Source: Bdellovibrionales bacterium
GTDB taxonomy: Bacteria > Bdellovibrionota > Bdellovibrionia > Bdellovibrionales > UBA840
Assembly (NCBI GenBank): GCA_037969075.1
Contig: JBBKWS010000061.1
Span: forward strand, 1 to 10,873
Length of the DNA stretch: 10,873 nucleotides
Reading direction: 5' to 3'
Positions 102-10,873 of this stretch are shown here, in pieces. The stretch's first letter is position 1, and each line of letters starts with the position of its first letter. The notes under the pieces are model-generated. The model was not told where the DNA came from. It saw only the letters and a program-made list of their open reading frames with translations, and searched no databases. Position numbers and translations under genes: made by a program.

Positions 102-485
102 ATGGAAATGAGAATTTTAATCGGCGATGATGCCCCGTTTATTCGCGAAGTTATTCGGAATATATTAACGGATGAAGGTGTCCAATTCTTACCAGATGCT
201 TGTGACGGGGAAGAGGTTGTTGCGTTAGCAAAACGCCATAAGCCAGACCTAATTTTTATGGACCTATCCATGCCTAAGAAAAATGGAATCCAAGCCTGCG
301 AAGAAATATTGCAAGAGCTACCAAATACAAAGATAGTGATTGTATCTTCGATGCATGATGAGTCGCTAATGCAAAGGGCAATTGAAATTGGCTGTGTAGA
401 TTACATTAAAAAACCATTTGAGGTGACTGATATACTATCAGTGCTAAAGCATGTTCACAAAAAGGCTAAGGTTGTAAATGGGTAA
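102..485 (+). CDS. Single-domain CheY-like response regulator (receiver)
   Basis: ILIGDD acidic pocket, PDLIFMDLSMP phosphoacceptor Asp, NGIQ, IVIVSS, DYIKKPF conserved Lys-Pro. 127 aa with no output domain. Confidence 0.93.
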   Translation: MEMRILIGDDAPFIREVIRNILTDEGVQFLPDACDGEEVVALAKRHKPDLIFMDLSMPKKNGIQACEEILQELPNTKIVIVSSMHDESLMQRAIEIGCVDYIKKPFEVTDILSVLKHVHKKAKVVNG

Positions 486-861
486 TTTATTATTTGTTAT
501 TAAGACATTTTTTTTATCATTAGCATTGATACTGGTTCTTCAGATAAAATGGGGAGAAAATAGCATTGATGATATGGTTTACTCTGAAATGAAAGGCTCT
601 TCGATCCTTAGCCCTATTAATGAAGTGGCTGCTGGCGGAGTACTTTGGGTGAAAAATACGTTTCGTGGTTTTAGCGGACTTTTTACAGATAAATTAAAAA
701 ATCAAATAGAACAATCAGACGCCGCGGGCAATCGCCGATTTGAAATCAAGCGTCACATTGACGAATCCAAGACAAAGGCAAAGCAAGCTAGATCGCGCTT
801 TAGCAATTGGTTAAATGATAATGATAAAACAGAGGAAGCGGCTACCGTAATTACTGAGTAG
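478..861 (+). CDS. Hypothetical protein with N-terminal membrane anchor
   Basis: 127-aa ORF overlapping the regulator's end by 8 nt (ATGGGTAA). Hydrophobic N-terminus (LLFVIKTFFLSLALILVLQI) and charged C-terminus. Confidence 0.75.
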   Translation: MGNLLFVIKTFFLSLALILVLQIKWGENSIDDMVYSEMKGSSILSPINEVAAGGVLWVKNTFRGFSGLFTDKLKNQIEQSDAAGNRRFEIKRHIDESKTKAKQARSRFSNWLNDNDKTEEAATVITE

Positions 862-1039
862 CGCGTTCCGAGCTGTTTGAATTGTTTGAGCTCTTTTGAG
901 CAGCAGCATTCTTTGCAGCAAAAGCACAGGTTTGTGATTTAAAATCTTTTTCCAAATGCTTTGGCATATTGGTGTTATTTGGATCATAAGCATTAGCTGA
1001 TAAACTAAAAGCTAAAATCGAAAAAATTAGTAGTTTCAT
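851..1039 (-). CDS. Small secreted low-complexity peptide (62 aa), candidate second Hit/Bd0108-like peptide
   Basis: Strong RBS TAAGGAG-N6-ATG, Sec signal MKLLIFSILAFSLSANA|, upstream sigma54 motif, polar S/N/A/K-rich mature part with one Cys. Confidence 0.8.
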   Translation of the reverse strand: MKLLIFSILAFSLSANAYDPNNTNMPKHLEKDFKSQTCAFAAKNAAAQKSSNNSNSSERATQ

Positions 1040-1063
1040 ATATATCTCCTTACTACTTACTAT

Positions 1064-1080
1064 TGCTACATTCGTGCCAA
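1064..1080 (-). promoter_or_regulatory. sigma54 (RpoN) -24/-12 promoter
   Basis: Minus strand TTGGCACGAATGTAGCA versus consensus TGGCACG-N4-TTGC(A/T). GG-N10-GC spacing is exact with one mismatch, and it lies just upstream of the RBS of 851..1039. Confidence 0.75.
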
Positions 1081-1118
1081 GGCTAGAGCCTTCTAAGGCA
1101 ATATATCGTTAGCAGGGG

Positions 1119-1135
1119 TGTCTCAATATGAGACA
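1119..1135. promoter_or_regulatory. Perfect inverted repeat TGTCTCA-ATA-TGAGACA, candidate regulator binding site
   Basis: 7-bp perfect arms, 3-nt spacer (TGT-N11-ACA), intergenic, about 40 nt upstream of the sigma54 motif, no U-tract on either side. Confidence 0.55.
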
Positions 1136-1154
1136 GCCGGAGAACTTTTAAACA

Positions 1155-1358
1155 CTAAAGGCCGCCCTCATCAGCGTCTTCATTTGAGCCATTATTAATG
1201 CCACTGGTTTTGTCTAATAGCATTTGAGAGGGAGTTGGCCTTTTGCCACAACCAACCATGCAGGGCACTTGGCCCTCATCATTTGGCTCAGTTAAAGAGG
1301 GCATATTTGGATCTGCGGCCCATAAGTTTGCTAATATAAGTATATTTATAATCATCAT
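1155..1358 (-). CDS. Small secreted acidic peptide (67 aa), positional equivalent of Bdellovibrio Hit/Bd0108
   Basis: Starts 9 nt after the RHS stop. Hydrophobic N-terminus MMIINILILANLWA|, P/G/N/D/E-rich mature region with CMVGC. Synteny with the RHS and tad genes. SD is weak (AGGGG). Confidence 0.7.
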   Translation of the reverse strand: MMIINILILANLWAADPNMPSLTEPNDEGQVPCMVGCGKRPTPSQMLLDKTSGINNGSNEDADEGGL

Positions 1359-1367
1359 TTGTAGCCC

Positions 1368-2987
1368 CTATATCCCAAGCTCTATCCCAGCGGGACGAAT
1401 TAGCTCTACTAAGTTGTTAAAGGCTCTAGCGACTTGTACTGCTACAGTTGGCCCCTCTTTACTATCTACTTTATCGATTTCTCCGCTAGATTTATAGATC
1501 ACACGAAGGCTCCCGACACCAGGTCTTTCTACATACTCTGGTTTTCCGAAGCGGTTTTCGTATTTAATCAAAACCTTACGTTTTGCCTGATCAACTAAAC
1601 CAACAATTCTACCGTTTCTGTCATAATCTAGTTTAACAGCAAGACCGGCAGCGTTTTTGGCAAAGGTTAAGTTACATTTTTTATCGTAAGCAAACTGAGT
1701 TAATTCTTTACCAGATCTTACTTCTGATATTTTATTACATTTAGAATACTTAAAACTAGTAAGAACTTCGCCCACTTTTTTAGTCTTCACCAAACCGTTA
1801 TCGAAGTAGTCGTATTTAGTAACGATATTATTCTCTTTAGTATATATCGGCTTTTCAAGGGTAGGGTGGTATTCAACTACCGTTTCAGCTCCGTTAACAA
1901 CGGATGCTACTTTAGATAAATAATCTCCTTGCCCAGTAACTGATGGTTTAAACCAAAATTCATATTTGGATTTTGTAAGTACCTTGGCTTTACAAGTCTT
2001 AGTCAATGTCGACCAATAATGTCGTTTAGGATCTTTCTTGTCCGTTTCATAGGTATACTTTTCGTTACAACCATCGCGATGTTTAAAGTCTGTTACCCAG
2101 TCCTTATTGGTATCGTAAGAAACTTGTTTAAACGTAGAATCAGGATAGTAGATATGTGTTAAGTTGTGTAGAGCATCGTATTTAAATGTATATTTATTCT
2201 TCCAAGCATTATTCACTTCAACTAAGTCTTGGCCAGTGTATTTAAAAGATGCGGCTAAACCATTTGGACCGCTAATTTTTTCAACCTTATTGTTTTTGCC
2301 AAACACAAAGTTAAGTTGTCTAGAATTATTGTCAGAGACTTTTTCGATTTGCCCTTTGCTGTTATAGCTATAGGTTAAATAGTTTCCATTTCTATCGAGC
2401 TGACGAACCATTCTTCCGTCTTTATCAAAGTTTTGTATAGTTGAATCTGGCAAACTTCTAACATATTGCCCTTTGACGAACTTAATGGCATCCACACTAT
2501 TTAGATTTGCTTTAAAAATGCTACCATCTTTAAGATCTGTAGAAACCTTGTATTGAGCCGCCATCTCGGTACGTTTTTTAGGGTCATTAAAAAGTTGATC
2601 TGATAGATCGTTGTAATATTTAGCGGTGAATCTACCGCCGGACTTTTTCATGCCTTCGATGATTTGATCTACAACACCTTTAACATCTGTTTTTTTAAAG
2701 TTTTGCGGGTAAAAGGTAAGTTCGTCCCCAGCGCCACATTCAGTTAGCAGTAGGGTGCCATCTGGATTAGATGTTAATTTTGTTTCAAATGACGAACACC
2801 ATCCAAAGCCAAAGTGACCATTGTAAAGTGTCCTGCTATTATACGTTGTCCTTACAGACATATCATAGCCAGAGCCCGCTACTTCCATGTGTATCCATGG
2901 GTCAGAAAAGTTAGCGTTTCGCATATCAACTAGTGCGTATGCAAAACTTGGAAAAATCAATGTAATTAGCAGAAGAGTTCTTCTCAT
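1368..2987 (-). CDS. Secreted YD/RHS-repeat protein, Bd0109-like (DUF6531-type N-terminal domain)
   Basis: Signal peptide (..SFAYA|); VRTTYNS..GHFGFGW motif typical of RHS N-termini; many YD repeats (FKYDALHNL, VSYDTNKD, KYDYFDNG, AYDKKCNL, DYDRNGR); RBS GAGGTGA at 2997-2991; no PxxxxDPxG cleavage motif. Confidence 0.88.
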   Translation of the reverse strand: MRRTLLLITLIFPSFAYALVDMRNANFSDPWIHMEVAGSGYDMSVRTTYNSRTLYNGHFGFGWCSSFETKLTSNPDGTLLLTECGAGDELTFYPQNFKKTDVKGVVDQIIEGMKKSGGRFTAKYYNDLSDQLFNDPKKRTEMAAQYKVSTDLKDGSIFKANLNSVDAIKFVKGQYVRSLPDSTIQNFDKDGRMVRQLDRNGNYLTYSYNSKGQIEKVSDNNSRQLNFVFGKNNKVEKISGPNGLAASFKYTGQDLVEVNNAWKNKYTFKYDALHNLTHIYYPDSTFKQVSYDTNKDWVTDFKHRDGCNEKYTYETDKKDPKRHYWSTLTKTCKAKVLTKSKYEFWFKPSVTGQGDYLSKVASVVNGAETVVEYHPTLEKPIYTKENNIVTKYDYFDNGLVKTKKVGEVLTSFKYSKCNKISEVRSGKELTQFAYDKKCNLTFAKNAAGLAVKLDYDRNGRIVGLVDQAKRKVLIKYENRFGKPEYVERPGVGSLRVIYKSSGEIDKVDSKEGPTVAVQVARAFNNLVELIRPAGIELGI

Positions 2988-3000
2988 CCTTCACCTCGTA

Positions 3001-3876
3001 TTATACTTTTATTGTAACAACTTTTCGAATAAATATGCCACCTGTAATTTGCAGGGCCAGCATGATCAAAATAAATATACGCCCTAAAGTCGTGTTGAAA
3101 AGGGGGCCGATAAAATTTGGATCAATCACTGAAAATACCACTAGCAAGACAAAAGGGATGATGGTCATAATGATTCCTTGCATTTTACCTTGTGCGGTAA
3201 GTGCATCAATCTTCTGATGTAACTTGTGTCTCTCTCTAATCGTATCAGTGATCGTAGAAAATGTAGACGCCAAATCTCCGCCAGTTTCTTTTAAAATATT
3301 AATAGCCATTACCAGCATTTGAACATCTGGCTCAGGTATTCTTTGCGCTAAATCATTAAGCGCCTCTTCAATACTTACGCCTAGTCTTACTTTACTAAGA
3401 GCTAGGTCGAACTCTTGGCTGATTGGGTTGGGCATACTTTCAGCCACCCTCTCCATAGATTGTGTGATACTAAGACCACTTCTGATACCATTAGACATAA
3501 TTGTAAGACCATCAACCATTTGCGCAACAAACTTACGGCAGCGCTTTTGGTATAACATTTCAATTCCCCATTTTGGTATCTGCCAACCAATAATGGTAAC
3601 AATGCTTCCTATAAAGATACTAAAAAATACACTTGGCCATAAAAATAGAAAAACTATAAATCCAAGTCCAAAGCTGAGGAGAAGCATAAGGTAGGTCAGC
3701 TGCTTTTCTGAGGATTCGATAAACATGGATTCCATGCGCTTAATAATAACATCTCTGCTGCCTAAGCTTTTTTGATGCAAGAAATTAATAATTCTCTCGC
3801 TCCATAAAAGAGATAAAACAAAAATCGAGATACCAACGCCTATAATCATAAACCAGGTGCTAGGATTTAAACTCAT
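3001..3876 (-). CDS. tadB: Flp pilus inner-membrane platform protein TadB (T2SS F family)
   Basis: LTIMSNGIRSGLS, PISQEF, G.SIEEAL..LA.R, ETGGDLA, IRER..L..KIDALTAQGKMQ motifs; TM helices; ATGA overlap with the ATPase gene. Confidence 0.92.
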   Translation of the reverse strand: MSLNPSTWFMIIGVGISIFVLSLLWSERIINFLHQKSLGSRDVIIKRMESMFIESSEKQLTYLMLLLSFGLGFIVFLFLWPSVFFSIFIGSIVTIIGWQIPKWGIEMLYQKRCRKFVAQMVDGLTIMSNGIRSGLSITQSMERVAESMPNPISQEFDLALSKVRLGVSIEEALNDLAQRIPEPDVQMLVMAINILKETGGDLASTFSTITDTIRERHKLHQKIDALTAQGKMQGIIMTIIPFVLLVVFSVIDPNFIGPLFNTTLGRIFILIMLALQITGGIFIRKVVTIKV

Positions 3877-6023
3877 CCATTACCCCCGACAGCTTTTTTA
3901 ATGGGTGTAGCGTCTGGAGCTGTGTTTTTGAATAACTCAGTTCCTATTTTAATTCCTTTACGTTCAAATTTCTCAATGAAAGTTGGGATAAAACCAGTAG
4001 CTTGAAACTGGCCAATAATTTTTCTGTTTTTATCAAAACCAGTTTCTTTAAATTTAAAAATTTCTTGCAAAGTAACCACTTCACCTTGCATGCCGACCAC
4101 TTCAGTAATGCTCATAATTTTTCTACTACCATCTGAAAGACGACTAACTTGAACAATTAGATTAACGGCAGAGGCGACCTGTTCGCGAATAGCTCGTGAA
4201 GGTAGATCCATTCCAGCCATCATCACTAGAGTTTCAAGTCTAGCGACAGCCTCTCGCGGATTGTTAGAGTGAACCGTAGTCATTGATCCATCGTGTCCAG
4301 TATTCATGGCTGATAACATATCTAAGGCTTCGCCACCACGACACTCTCCAACAACAATTCTATCTGGTCTCATACGAAGAGTGTTTCGAACAAGATCTCT
4401 GATAGTGACAGCTCCAGTGCCTTCCATATTAGCTGGTTTAGTTTCTAGTCTAACAACGTGCTGTTGATTTAGCTGTAATTCTGCTGCGTCCTCGACAGTA
4501 ATAATTCTTTCATTGGAGGGGATAAAGCTCGACATGGTATTTAATAAAGTTGTTTTACCAGATCCCGTACCACCAGAAATAATTATATTTAGACCATTTT
4601 CAACACAGAGTTTGATAAAACTAATCATCTGTTTATTTAAACTGCCCCACTTTAAATAATGGTCTGTTGTTATGATTTCTTTTTTAAATTTTCTAATAGT
4701 TAAAGTGGCCCCATCAATAGATACTGGAGGGATTACGGCATTAACTCGACTACCATCTTTTAACCTTGCGTCTACATAGGGATTTTTTTCATCAATTCTA
4801 CGACCCAAAGGGGTTACAATTCGCTCGATCACATTTCTGAGCTGTAGATCCGAAGTGAATGTTATCGGGCTCATGGTAAGCTTACCATTTCTTTCCACAA
4901 ATATTCTTTTTGGGCCATTTACCATAATCTCAGAAACGTCATCATCGCTTAGCATATCTTCAAGTGGTCCCAGCCCAAGAGCCTCATCAAGAACTTCTTT
5001 AATTACTTGTGATCTTTCATTTCTATCTAGGCCACCATATTCTTTATCAACAATCTGAGTTATGCTTTGTAGGGTTTTGTTTTTTAGAGCAGCTTCTTTA
5101 ACCGGGTCCCCATTAGTGTCGGTGATCCCTTTTTTTAAATCCATTGCCATAATAAGTGCGGTATGGATTCTGGTTTTCATCAGCGTTTTTGGATCATCGC
5201 TGCTAGATGTAATCATAGTAGGGGCTGAGGTTGAGGCAGGCTTTGCTACCTTTGGTCTCATCTTAAGTTTTTGCAAAACGTTGCTACCGATTAATTTTCT
5301 TACAGTATCTCTGTAAGCATTTACAATTGGAGAATTGGCCTGCGCCTGCGCAAATAGTGTAGATTTTTGTAATGCGCCCGCTGTAGTAATATCATCTTGT
5401 GGAATCATCGAAATGATTGGTCTCTGTAAAGTTTGCGAAATACTTTGCGGACTTAGACCAGTGTTACTTGCCTTATTAATTACTATTTGAAATAAATCCA
5501 TTGATATGGTTTGAGCGACTAAATTACCAATTTGTCTTTTTGATTGTGTTAGAGCTAGAATTTCGGGCGTAGTAATAAAAAGACAAGCGCTACTATTATG
5601 AATGACTTCAATTTGCAGCTCATCATATTCACATCCAACATCAACCACAATGTAGTCAAATAAGTGACTGAATTGCATAAGCTGCCTATTAAAAGTTTCA
5701 CTATTAACACGAAGACTTTCATCAGGGCTTTTTACTGCAGCTAAATAATAGAGACCGGCGGCATTTTTACTAATCAACGAATCAATGGTTTGTGCGTTAA
5801 TAGTTCCAGCAAAGCTGGTAATTTCTGCGACAGTTTTATTTGGCTTTATACCAGTAATCATGTTTTGGTCGCCGGCAGAATTTTTATCAAGATCGATCAA
5901 TAAAACTCTTTTTCTAGTTTCTAAAAGAAGAGTCTGTGCGAAGTTTGCCGCAAACACACTTTTACCTATGCCGCCTTTGCCGCCGCTGATAGTAATAATA
6001 TGTGAATTAGGGTTAAATGACAT
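3873..6023 (-). CDS. tadA: Fusion of a CpaE/TadZ-like MinD/ParA domain with the CpaF/TadA pilus ATPase (716 aa)
   Basis: N-terminal deviant Walker [10 protein letters not shown] (5958-5984), LLIDLD, DYIVVD; C-terminal [16 protein letters not shown], Walker A GGTGSGKT (4551-4574), [36 protein letters not shown]. Confidence 0.95.
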
Positions 6024-10709: not shown

Positions 10710-10737
10710 ATTTCGGTCTAATTTTGCTACACCATTA
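10710..10737 (-). promoter_or_regulatory. Possible sigma28 (FliA)-type promoter for flp
   Basis: Minus strand TAAT-N16-ACCGAAAT versus consensus TAAA-N15/16-GCCGATAA, about 40 nt upstream of the flp start. Confidence 0.4.
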
Positions 10738-10873
10738 GGGAAATGTTTAAAATACTTAAGGAAAAATGCATTTGCCTATAAGTTTTTTACCTAAATTAGG
10801 CTAAATCTGCGAAATGTGACGGGCTGGACTGTAAAACAATTAGACACTAGCCTTAGGTACCTGCTTCCTTTTT

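What the first reader, a model, noticed from the sequence alone, without database searches (positions are those of the whole stretch)
851..1358. Two related small secreted peptides occupy the hit position downstream of the RHS gene
Seen: both ORFs have an N-terminal signal-like segment, and the predicted mature chains begin ADPNMP and YDPNNTNMP. They share the DNA GATCCAAATA (1304-1313 and 976-985), and AATATGCC follows in both, differing by a 9-nt insertion. Each has a Gln shortly before a Cys at about mature residue 19-21 and an S/N-rich tail. Net charges are opposite (9 acidic/3 basic versus 4 acidic/6 basic). Known: in B. bacteriovorus the small, secreted, disordered Bd0108 (Hit) lies next to RHS protein Bd0109, binds it, affects pilus extension, and its mutation favours host-independent growth. 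Inference: a duplicated, diverged pair of Hit-like ligands, possibly alternative or antagonistic signals for the same RHS/pilus switch.
Basis: partly seen in the sequence, partly recalled or inferred. Interest (0 to 1): 0.8.

Follow-up and report, generated by a model that had tools for sequence, protein, structure and literature searches.

The report
Second secreted peptide at hit locus
Next to the gene that lets predatory Bdellovibrio-type bacteria switch between hunting and free growth sits a second, separately controlled, tiny exported protein found across the whole group; its counterpart in the model species lies inside a transcript that was published as a non-coding RNA.

Summary
Both ORFs are real, but their direct likeness is marginal (mature chains, BLOSUM62 local p=0.31), and the pair is not a local duplication. 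In 108 loci of the order, a two-Cys acidic secreted peptide follows the RHS gene (100 loci; Bd0108/Hit in L034). A one-Cys basic peptide follows it (85 loci), behind a sigma54 site (80 of 85) and a TCTCA-N3-TGAGA palindrome (66 of 85). ORF A fills the first slot, by position only; ORF B fills the second. Both published primers of the 'hit-locus sRNA', which rises in bd0108 mutants (PMC3818213), match inside the slot-2 ORF of L034. That ORF is under protein-level purifying selection (pN/pS 0.2). So the 'sRNA' is most likely the mRNA of an inducible second peptide. Predicted B-RHS binding has weak support only (0.46, best control 0.02). Ancient paralogy is plausible but unproven. Prehna 2014 noted two small neighbours in B. 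marinus, and RefSeq lists a hypothetical gene there. This scan earlier noted sigma54-driven single-Cys peptides at hit loci in two other genomes. I found no paper linking the sRNA to a peptide.

The parts
1368..2987 (-). Bd0109-type secreted RHS/YD-repeat protein (DUF6531 + RHS repeats), 539 aa, no DPxG motif and no C-terminal toxin domain
   Evidence: Pfam; homologs in 295 of 301 genomes of the order; AlphaFold2 pLDDT 89; Foldseek top hits are Rhs cages; no DPxG
1155..1358 (-). ORF A, slot-1 peptide (positional counterpart of Bd0108/Hit): acidic, DPN, C-x3-C, starts 9 nt after the RHS stop
   Evidence: slot present in 100 of 108 loci; the L034 slot-1 protein is named 'hit'; no significant alignment to Bd0108
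1119..1135 (.). Palindrome TGTCTCA-N3-TGAGACA, probable transcription-factor site
   Evidence: 66 of 85 loci versus 0.6 expected; 20 copies in G000 versus 1.4 expected
1064..1079 (-). sigma54-type -24/-12 promoter of ORF B
   Evidence: 80 of 85 slot-2 genes; 0 of 100 before slot 1 and 0 of 85 on the opposite strand; G000 has rpoN and 8 strong sigma54-activator hits
1046..1051 (-). Ribosome-binding site AAGGAG of ORF B
851..1039 (-). ORF B, slot-2 peptide: signal peptide, DPN, single Cys, basic, S/N tail; positional counterpart of the ORF inside the published 'hit-locus sRNA'
478..861 (+). Convergent conserved hypothetical gene in the Bd0103 position; overlaps the end of ORF B by 11 nt
   Evidence: similar ORF on the opposite strand in most printed loci; gene order in PMC3627812 Table S1 rows
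102..485 (+). Single-domain response regulator in the Bd0102 position
   Evidence: Pfam PF00072
3001..10703 (-). Tad/Flp pilus operon upstream of the RHS gene (TadB, CpaE-TadA fusion, secretin, CpaB, minor pilins, prepilin peptidase, Flp)
10711..10738 (-). FliA (sigma28)-like promoter match ahead of flp
   Evidence: the B. bacteriovorus operon has a FliA start site at Bd0119 (PMC3627812 Table S2)

Best explanation
The locus is a two-peptide control unit on a periplasmic RHS scaffold. SHOWN by sequence: the RHS gene is followed by slot-1 peptide A, which has no sigma54 site, then by a palindrome and a sigma54 promoter that drive slot-2 peptide B, a real exported protein with an unpaired Cys. 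FROM THE LITERATURE (B. bacteriovorus): the slot-1 peptide Bd0108 is co-transcribed with and binds Bd0109, controls pili, and its loss permits prey-independent growth; the transcript covering slot 2 rises when functional Bd0108 is missing but not in HI strains with wild-type bd0108. INFERRED: A is made with the attack-phase Tad operon and holds the RHS/pilus checkpoint. When that signal is lost, a regulator acting at the palindrome and a sigma54 activator switch on B. B is exported and feeds back on the same RHS protein, most likely as a counter-ligand or output rather than a replacement, since its induction does not restore obligate predation in bd0108 mutants. It may work as a Cys-linked dimer or by thiol exchange with A's disulfide. 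My odds: B is a translated, exported peptide 0.95; made from the sigma54 site 0.85; the published sRNA is its mRNA 0.8; A works as Hit 0.8; A and B are ancient paralogs 0.55; B binds the RHS protein 0.45; B opposes A 0.3.
For: Architecture in 108 loci, 10 families, 53 genera: slot 1 in 100, slot 2 in 85, both in 82. Slot 2 has one Cys in 81 of 85 and three in 4 (always odd); slot 1 has an even number in 96 of 100. Net charge is higher in slot 2 in 81 of 82 pairs. Sigma54 site in 80 of 85, controls 0 of 100 and 0 of 85; palindrome in 66 of 85 versus 0.6 expected. Slot-2 pN/pS 0.20 over 10 non-overlapping same-genus pairs; L034/L035 pS 0.35, pN 0.019. Codon-position conservation 0.63/0.72/0.50 in 19 loci of genus g33. 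Frame, Cys core and stop position are kept in the G050 fragment. Both sRNA primers of PMC3818213 match exactly inside the L034 slot-2 ORF; regulation as read in section 14. No Rfam match. L034 proteins are named 'hit' and 'hypothetical protein'. RHS + mature B: weak support, score 0.46, best of 3 controls 0.02, runs agree in at least 46% of contacts, partner pLDDT at least 41; the mark was reached by 116 of 157 solved and 2 of 215 mismatched pairs, but at 0.60 or under by only 18 solved pairs and both mismatches. Paralogy: 11 of 49 genus-level slot-1 peptides beat shuffles on a slot-2 HMM versus 1 of 60 control proteins (Fisher p=0.001). Slot 1 resembles its own locus's slot 2 more than others (mean z 1.14 vs 0.23; within-family permutation p=0.011).
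Against: No expression, translation or binding data for this organism. The strand of the published RNA is not given in the passages I read, and the primer named F matches the strand opposite to the ORF. DPN is in only 10 of 85 slot-2 peptides, so a shared DPN docking mode cannot be general. The reverse HMM test fails (5 of 40 versus 5 of 60 controls, p=0.52). With Cys and tail fixed, the forward test drops to 12 of 49 versus 4 of 37 (p=0.16). hhalign of the mature profiles gives 0.6% probability; on full-length profiles only the signal peptides align. A does not score on the genus-level slot-1 HMM (p=0.69) and B is borderline on slot 2 (p=0.07). 16 full-length loci have no slot-2 call, among them same-family L005. 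The complex pass is of the weak class that the tool calls more often wrong than right unless likely beforehand. A's signal peptide lacks a basic n-region.
Confidence: 0.5

Rival explanations
1. B is a real sigma54-induced exported peptide but an unrelated family with another target (an envelope or pilus-stress output of the palindrome regulon) that only sits beside the hit operon.
For: No mature-profile homology; reverse HMM test negative; DPN absent from 75 of 85 slot-2 peptides. The palindrome lies mostly before lipoprotein and secreted-protein genes elsewhere in G000, G015, G043 and G066.
Against: Position kept across 9 families of the order and in other orders; own-locus similarity excess p=0.011; weak B-RHS pass; the transcript responds to bd0108 genotype.
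Confidence: 0.3
2. One reading: a recent lineage-specific duplication gave two interchangeable Hit-like ligands.
For: Both begin with DPN and share a 10-nt word. A scores better on the slot-2 HMM (p=0.02) than on slot 1 (p=0.69) and is short for slot 1 (53 versus median 76.5 mature residues), so a local replacement of slot 1 by a slot-2 copy is not excluded.
Against: The two slots exist in 82 loci of 38 genera. A keeps slot-1 traits (two Cys, acidic, no sigma54 site). Pairwise p=0.31. The Met of NMP is not kept in G050.
Confidence: 0.1
3. The slot-2 region works as a regulatory small RNA, as published, and the ORF is incidental (or the RNA has both roles).
For: PMC3818213 section 14 and discussion call it a 261-nt sRNA. 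The window's sense transcript folds at z=-2.3 against rough doublet shuffles.
Against: pN/pS 0.2; codon periodicity; invariant Cys; RBS and signal peptide in all 85 calls (these two were calling criteria); no Rfam hit; L034 sense fold z=-0.5; the paper reported no obvious targets.
Confidence: 0.05
4. B is a small lipoprotein and its single Cys is the lipid anchor.
For: Automatic UniRef name 'Lipoprotein' on two cluster members; in some slot-2 peptides the Cys directly follows the signal peptide.
Against: In the window the Cys is mature residue 21, after charged residues. Across the family its distance from the signal peptide runs from 0 to more than 24 residues, which does not fit a lipobox.
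Confidence: 0.05

Closest known systems
Bd0108 (Hit) with RHS protein Bd0109, Bdellovibrio bacteriovorus (PMC3818213, PMC4267844; passages read, plus section 14 of the first)
   Same: Gene order tad - RHS - small exported peptide; A is acidic, disorder-like in composition, with DPN and two close Cys (Bd0108: C56-C59 disulfide, N32 and D36 in the binding segment).
   Different: A is 67 aa against 101, C-x3-C against CxxC, has no significant alignment to Bd0108 (p=0.67) and no basic n-region. Those papers describe no second peptide in B. bacteriovorus in the passages read.
'Hit-locus sRNA' between bd0103 and bd0108 (PMC3818213, section 14)
   Same: Same position as ORF B; both RT-PCR primers fall inside the slot-2 ORF of L034.
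   Different: Published as non-coding. Here it carries a conserved secreted-peptide ORF under purifying selection with a sigma54 promoter and a palindrome.
BD_RS00505, hypothetical gene between Bd0108 and Bd0103 (PMC5941755, passages); WP_038450492
   Same: Almost certainly the slot-2 ORF (inferred from position; the tag itself was not returned by any search).
   Different: Only listed as hypothetical; no family, promoter, link to the sRNA or function in the passages read.
BMS_0183/BMS_0184 beside BMS_0182 in Bacteriovorax marinus SJ (PMC4267844, discussion passage)
   Same: Two small signal-peptide genes next to a Bd0109 homolog.
   Different: Reported as having no significant homology to Bd0108 and as a peculiarity. 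Here the two-slot layout is the rule in the loci examined.
Rhs/YD-repeat cages (T6SS Rhs, Tc B-C, teneurins)
   Same: Fold of the scaffold (Foldseek E down to 1.8e-24).
   Different: About half the length, signal peptide, no DPxG protease motif, no toxin tip; any cargo would be encoded in trans.

Membership tests
Bd0108/Hit (ORF A) | Directly downstream of a Bd0109 ortholog at the end of the tad operon | tested here: met
   9 nt after the RHS stop; RHS 46-47% identical to the g33 homologs listed
Bd0108/Hit (ORF A) | Sequence similarity to Bd0108 | tested here: not met
   p=0.67; slot-1 HMM p=0.046 with all loci but 0.69 with one per genus. A is therefore filed as a positional counterpart, not as a family member.
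Bd0108/Hit (ORF A) | Close Cys pair and conserved N-terminal DPN segment | tested here: met
   C19-x3-C23 and DPN; Cys pair in 82 of 100 and DPN in 39 of 100 slot-1 peptides versus 2.6 expected
Bd0108/Hit (ORF A) | Exported and intrinsically disordered | tested here: inconclusive
   Hydrophobic N-terminus without K/R; charge-hydropathy index -0.126, the same as Bd0108; no SignalP or disorder predictor available
Bd0108/Hit (ORF A) | Binds Bd0109 and controls pili and host independence | not tested
Bd0108/Hit (ORF B) | Close Cys pair, acidic, first gene after the RHS gene | tested here: not met
   One Cys, basic, second position with its own sigma54 site; p=0.79 against Bd0108
Bd0108/Hit (ORF B) | Binds the RHS protein | tested here: inconclusive
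   Weak support: 0.46 versus best control 0.02, contact agreement at least 46%, partner pLDDT at least 41
Slot-2 peptide family (defined here) | Signal peptide, odd Cys number, net basic, sigma54 site 39-86 nt before the start, palindrome upstream | tested here: met
   All present in ORF B; top score among 66 small secreted candidates of G000 on the slot-2 HMM, but only 6.2 bits
sigma54-dependent promoter | -24 GG / -12 GC consensus, rpoN and activators in the genome | tested here: met
sigma54-dependent promoter | Mapped start site and RpoN dependence | not testable with these tools
   Only assembled RNA contigs were held; they show no strand or start
Known RNA family | Rfam match | tested here: not met
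   0 matches at E<=1 in L034 and L002

The most novel reading that the evidence does not exclude
The predation/growth switch of Bdellovibrionota is a two-ligand circuit on one RHS cage. An operon-encoded, disulfide-closed acidic peptide (Hit) and a sigma54-induced, free-thiol basic paralog (the misread 'sRNA') compete for, or exchange disulfides at, the same scaffold and co-evolve within each lineage. A so far undescribed regulator at TGTCTCA-N3-TGAGACA ties the second peptide to a regulon of exported proteins. This would be the missing link between Bd0108 loss and the transcriptional change to prey-independent growth.
Probability: 0.3. Interest if true: 0.85.

Novelty: new variant of a known kind. 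Interest (0 to 1): 0.62.

Why it matters
How loss of Bd0108 turns an obligate predator into a free-growing cell has been open since the hit locus was found, and the one downstream clue in print was an 'sRNA' without targets (PMC3818213). If that RNA encodes a conserved exported peptide under sigma54 control, the question becomes directly testable in the genetically tractable B. bacteriovorus: a start-codon mutant, promoter and palindrome mutants, and binding to Bd0109. It also cautions against BLAST-based statements that many relatives 'lack' bd0108 (PMC11870529 and PMC5941755, passages): a slot-1 peptide was found in 100 of 108 loci examined here, though I did not check those papers' strains one by one.

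Tried and rejected
Pairwise A-B alignment as proof of duplication: not significant on standard settings. hhalign of slot families: no mature-chain match. Pfam: nothing meaningful for A or B. ESM Atlas: best scores 0.85 and 0.81, unnamed clusters, leads only. Further copies of either family in G000: none convincing among 66 small secreted candidates; a cytochrome-like protein tops the slot-1 HMM through its CxxC motifs. The search for related loci gave 1 genome locus, cut before the peptides, and 3 metagenome loci, one of which duplicates G015. Public RNA runs: only contigs; one run breaks between slot 1 and the sigma54 site of L034, three do not, so this is no evidence. Sigma70 scan 400-1500: 0 promoters; no terminator between A and B. 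DP in both slots of the same locus: 13 of 16 versus 38 of 66, p=0.09. Best single cross-hits of A and B among 183 peptides (p about 0.001) are near what multiple testing gives. The idea that DPN mimics the Rhs DPxG motif in trans was considered and has no support. Cotter 1992 and Roschanski 2011 were not held; supplements of PMC3818213 could not be read and may state the RNA's strand.

Full report
OBSERVATION. The shared 10-nt word, the 9-nt difference, the Gln-before-Cys and the mature charges (9/3 and 4/6) check out. The likeness itself is marginal. Mature chains give p=0.31 (BLOSUM62 local) and 0.23 (BLOSUM45). Full-length global alignments reach 0.017-0.046 only with the signal peptides included. 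BLOSUM80 runs gave 0.003-0.005 but used gap costs too cheap for that matrix. The 10-nt word has p=0.046 against codon shuffles. In the same-genus genome G050, which holds only the 3' part of B, the Cys core, frame and stop position are kept, but NMP reads NQP.

CONTEXT. The window is a tad/flp operon followed by a secreted RHS protein, with a response regulator and a hypothetical gene converging from the other side. This is the gene order of the B. bacteriovorus hit locus (PMC3627812 Table S1 rows). The RHS protein has homologs in 295 of 301 genomes of the order and 87 of 121 of the phylum sample. It folds with pLDDT 89, resembles Rhs cages and lacks a DPxG motif.

SURVEY. I took the DNA downstream of the RHS gene from genomes among the 150 best matches listed, so weakly scoring families are under-sampled. 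111 loci had at least 300 nt downstream; three duplicates were dropped, leaving 108 (10 families, 53 genera). Peptides were called by position, hydrophobic N-terminus and (slot 2) ribosome-binding site, not by Cys or promoter. Slot 1 was called in 101; I dropped L086 as a doubtful call, giving 100. Slot 2 was called in 87; I dropped L008, L068 and L094 (a false call and two displaced slot-1 genes) and added L049 by hand, giving 85. Seven loci end too early; 16 full-length loci have no slot-2 call. Slot 1 has an even Cys number in 96 of 100 and is acidic in 93. Slot 2 has one Cys in 81 and three in 4, and is basic in 76. In 81 of 82 pairs slot 2 is the more basic, and 71 have opposite sign. A strict sigma54 pattern precedes 80 of 85 slot-2 genes (79 of the 87 raw calls), 0 of 100 slot-1 genes and 0 of 85 opposite strands (with a slightly shorter window). 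TCTCA-N3-TGAGA with at most one mismatch lies between the slots in 66 of 85, against 0.6 expected. Three loci have a further slot-2-like gene with its own sigma54 site, and L082 repeats slot 2 identically. Of 40 further loci, 37 lie outside the order. Small Cys-bearing exported peptides follow the RHS gene in all 10 of family f21 (two or three in 7) and in f14, f18, f23, f24, f26, f27, f30 and f31, but in 0 of 8 of f17 and 0 of 1 of f29. My stop detection was off-frame in many of these loci, so some slot-1 genes may have been skipped.

IDENTITY OF THE SLOTS. The slot-1 protein of L034 is the protein named 'hit' (CAE77782.1) and has the residues that Prehna et al. give for Bd0108 (101 aa, N32, D36, C56, C59). 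Its slot-2 protein is WP_038450492.1, 'hypothetical'. [quoted passage not shown] Both of their primers match exactly inside the slot-2 ORF of L034 (ORF 510-711 nt after the RHS stop; primers 541-561 and 619-639). That ORF is selected as protein. Pooled pN/pS is 0.20 over 10 non-overlapping same-genus pairs, the same as slot 1 (11 pairs); L034 against L035 has pS 0.35 and pN 0.019. Codon positions are conserved 0.63/0.72/0.50 in 19 loci, the Cys is invariant in the 79 sequences aligned, and Rfam has no match. The strand of the published RNA is not stated in what I read, the paper's supplements were not readable, and public RNA data were contigs only, so 'the sRNA is this mRNA' is a strong inference and not shown. 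The region is not among the 8 attack-phase sRNAs of Karunker et al.; I read part 1 of 2 of their start-site table, which is ordered by position and has no start between Bd0064 and Bd0119.

ARE A AND B RELATED? With all loci, 33 of 99 slot-1 peptides beat at least 49 of 50 shuffles on a slot-2 HMM and 31 of 84 the other way, but kin inflate this. With one per genus it is 11 of 49 against 1 of 60 control proteins (p=0.001) one way, and 5 of 40 against 5 of 60 (p=0.52) the other; with Cys and tail fixed, 12 of 49 against 4 of 37 (p=0.16). Profile-profile comparison fails. Both slots are enriched for DPN (39 of 100, 10 of 85) and for a Cys...L-x-x-x-T pattern (32 and 29, against 5.6 and 2.5 expected), but I wrote the second pattern after seeing the data. 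Across 38 genera, a slot-1 peptide resembles its own slot 2 more than others (z 1.14 versus 0.23; p=0.011 when permuted within families), which fits co-evolution with one binding site or occasional conversion. For the window itself, A scores p=0.02 on slot 2 and 0.69 on slot 1, B 0.07 and 0.50, and neither aligns to Bd0108. Ancient paralogy: about 0.55.

REGULATION. G000 has rpoN and 8 strong activator hits. The palindrome occurs 20 times in G000 against 1.4 expected, and only at spacer 3 (0-3 copies at other spacers). Most copies lie just before lipoprotein-like or secreted-protein genes, and few have a sigma54 site nearby. The longer form occurs 25, 10 and 5 times in G066, G015 and G043 and 0 times in G002 and G308 (reversed control 0, 0, 0, 2, 0). 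G002 also has no slot-2 call (L005). One G043 copy lies ahead of a flp pilin gene on the contig that carries the RHS gene. The binding protein is unknown; in genus g33 the site lies only about 8 nt from the -24 element, closer than a usual enhancer (spacing rule from my own knowledge). The operon itself has a FliA-like site, as mapped for Bd0119.

BINDING. RHS residues 19-539 with mature B: weak support, score 0.46, best of 3 controls 0.02, contact agreement at least 46%, partner pLDDT at least 41. The mark was reached by 116 of 157 solved complexes and 2 of 215 mismatches, but at 0.60 or under by only 18 of the solved ones and by both mismatches; the counts hold only roughly because my own alignments were used. 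The RHS protein's conserved Cys are four (C64, C84, C307, C332), probably two disulfides, so B's unpaired Cys more likely pairs with another B or exchanges with A (inference).

MECHANISM. Most likely A is the operon-encoded Hit-type ligand and B an inducible second exported peptide, switched on through sigma54 when Hit function is lost and feeding back on the RHS/pilus checkpoint. The rise in a start-codon mutant argues for a trans signal rather than a distance effect of deletion (inference). Because induced slot 2 does not keep bd0108 mutants obligately predatory, an output or counter-ligand role is somewhat more likely than replacement. The main rival is that B is an unrelated output of the palindrome regulon (0.3).

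PRIOR ART. Read: passages of PMC3818213 (plus section 14), PMC4267844, PMC5941755, PMC11870529, PMC11323537, PMC13689555 and PMC2797640; passages, section 16 and parts of two supplements of PMC3627812. Prehna et al. already noted two small signal-peptide neighbours in B. marinus without homology to Bd0108. Oyedara et al. list BD_RS00505 as hypothetical. Eight full-text searches gave no paper that links the sRNA to a peptide, or that describes the sigma54 site or the palindrome; subscription papers, including Cotter 1992 and Roschanski 2011, were not available. Two earlier notes of this scan report sigma54-driven single-Cys peptides at hit-type loci in other genomes; the excerpts do not mention the sRNA link.

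VERDICT. The genes are real and the arrangement is ancient and widespread. New variant of a known kind; interest 0.62.

Noticed in passing
G000, 20 sites (e.g. C24:6988, C50:3036, C69:412, C101:9897, C121:1301, C170:1688, C178:1990); G066, G015, G043: TCTCA-N3-TGAGA palindrome, mostly 40-130 nt before lipoprotein-like (often QNC-type) and secreted-protein genes: a likely undescribed regulon of Bdellovibrionales; the longer form is absent from G002 and G308.
   Followed up: partly
G000 C47:3345(-), C55:8533(-), C58:21438(-), C65:5165(-), C70:4601(+), C138:4336(+): Six paralogous 113-161 aa coiled-coil-like genes (starting MD-I-...GF-R-QAE-QV), each 61-64 nt behind a sigma54 consensus.
   Followed up: no
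G000 C55:4462(+): Another sigma54 site before a 45-aa secreted peptide ending in a CxxC motif.
   Followed up: no
window 3873-6023(-): TadA ATPase fused to an N-terminal CpaE/MinD-like domain.
   Followed up: no
L025, L027, L030, L124, L127, L129: Extra slot-2-like peptide genes, most with their own sigma54 site; L082 repeats slot 2 identically, possibly an assembly artefact.
   Followed up: partly
L106:1983-2177(-): Slot-1 gene appears frameshifted after the DPN segment (65 aa, Cys pair lost).
   Followed up: no
L145-L147, L151-L154, L156 (family f17): RHS homologs with no small exported peptide called downstream in 8 of 8 loci; stop detection was off-frame in some.
   Followed up: partly
L120, L122, L123, L127, L128, L130, L142 (family f21): In this family the first peptide often has an odd Cys number too (1 or 3), unlike slot 1 in the window's order.
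   Followed up: no
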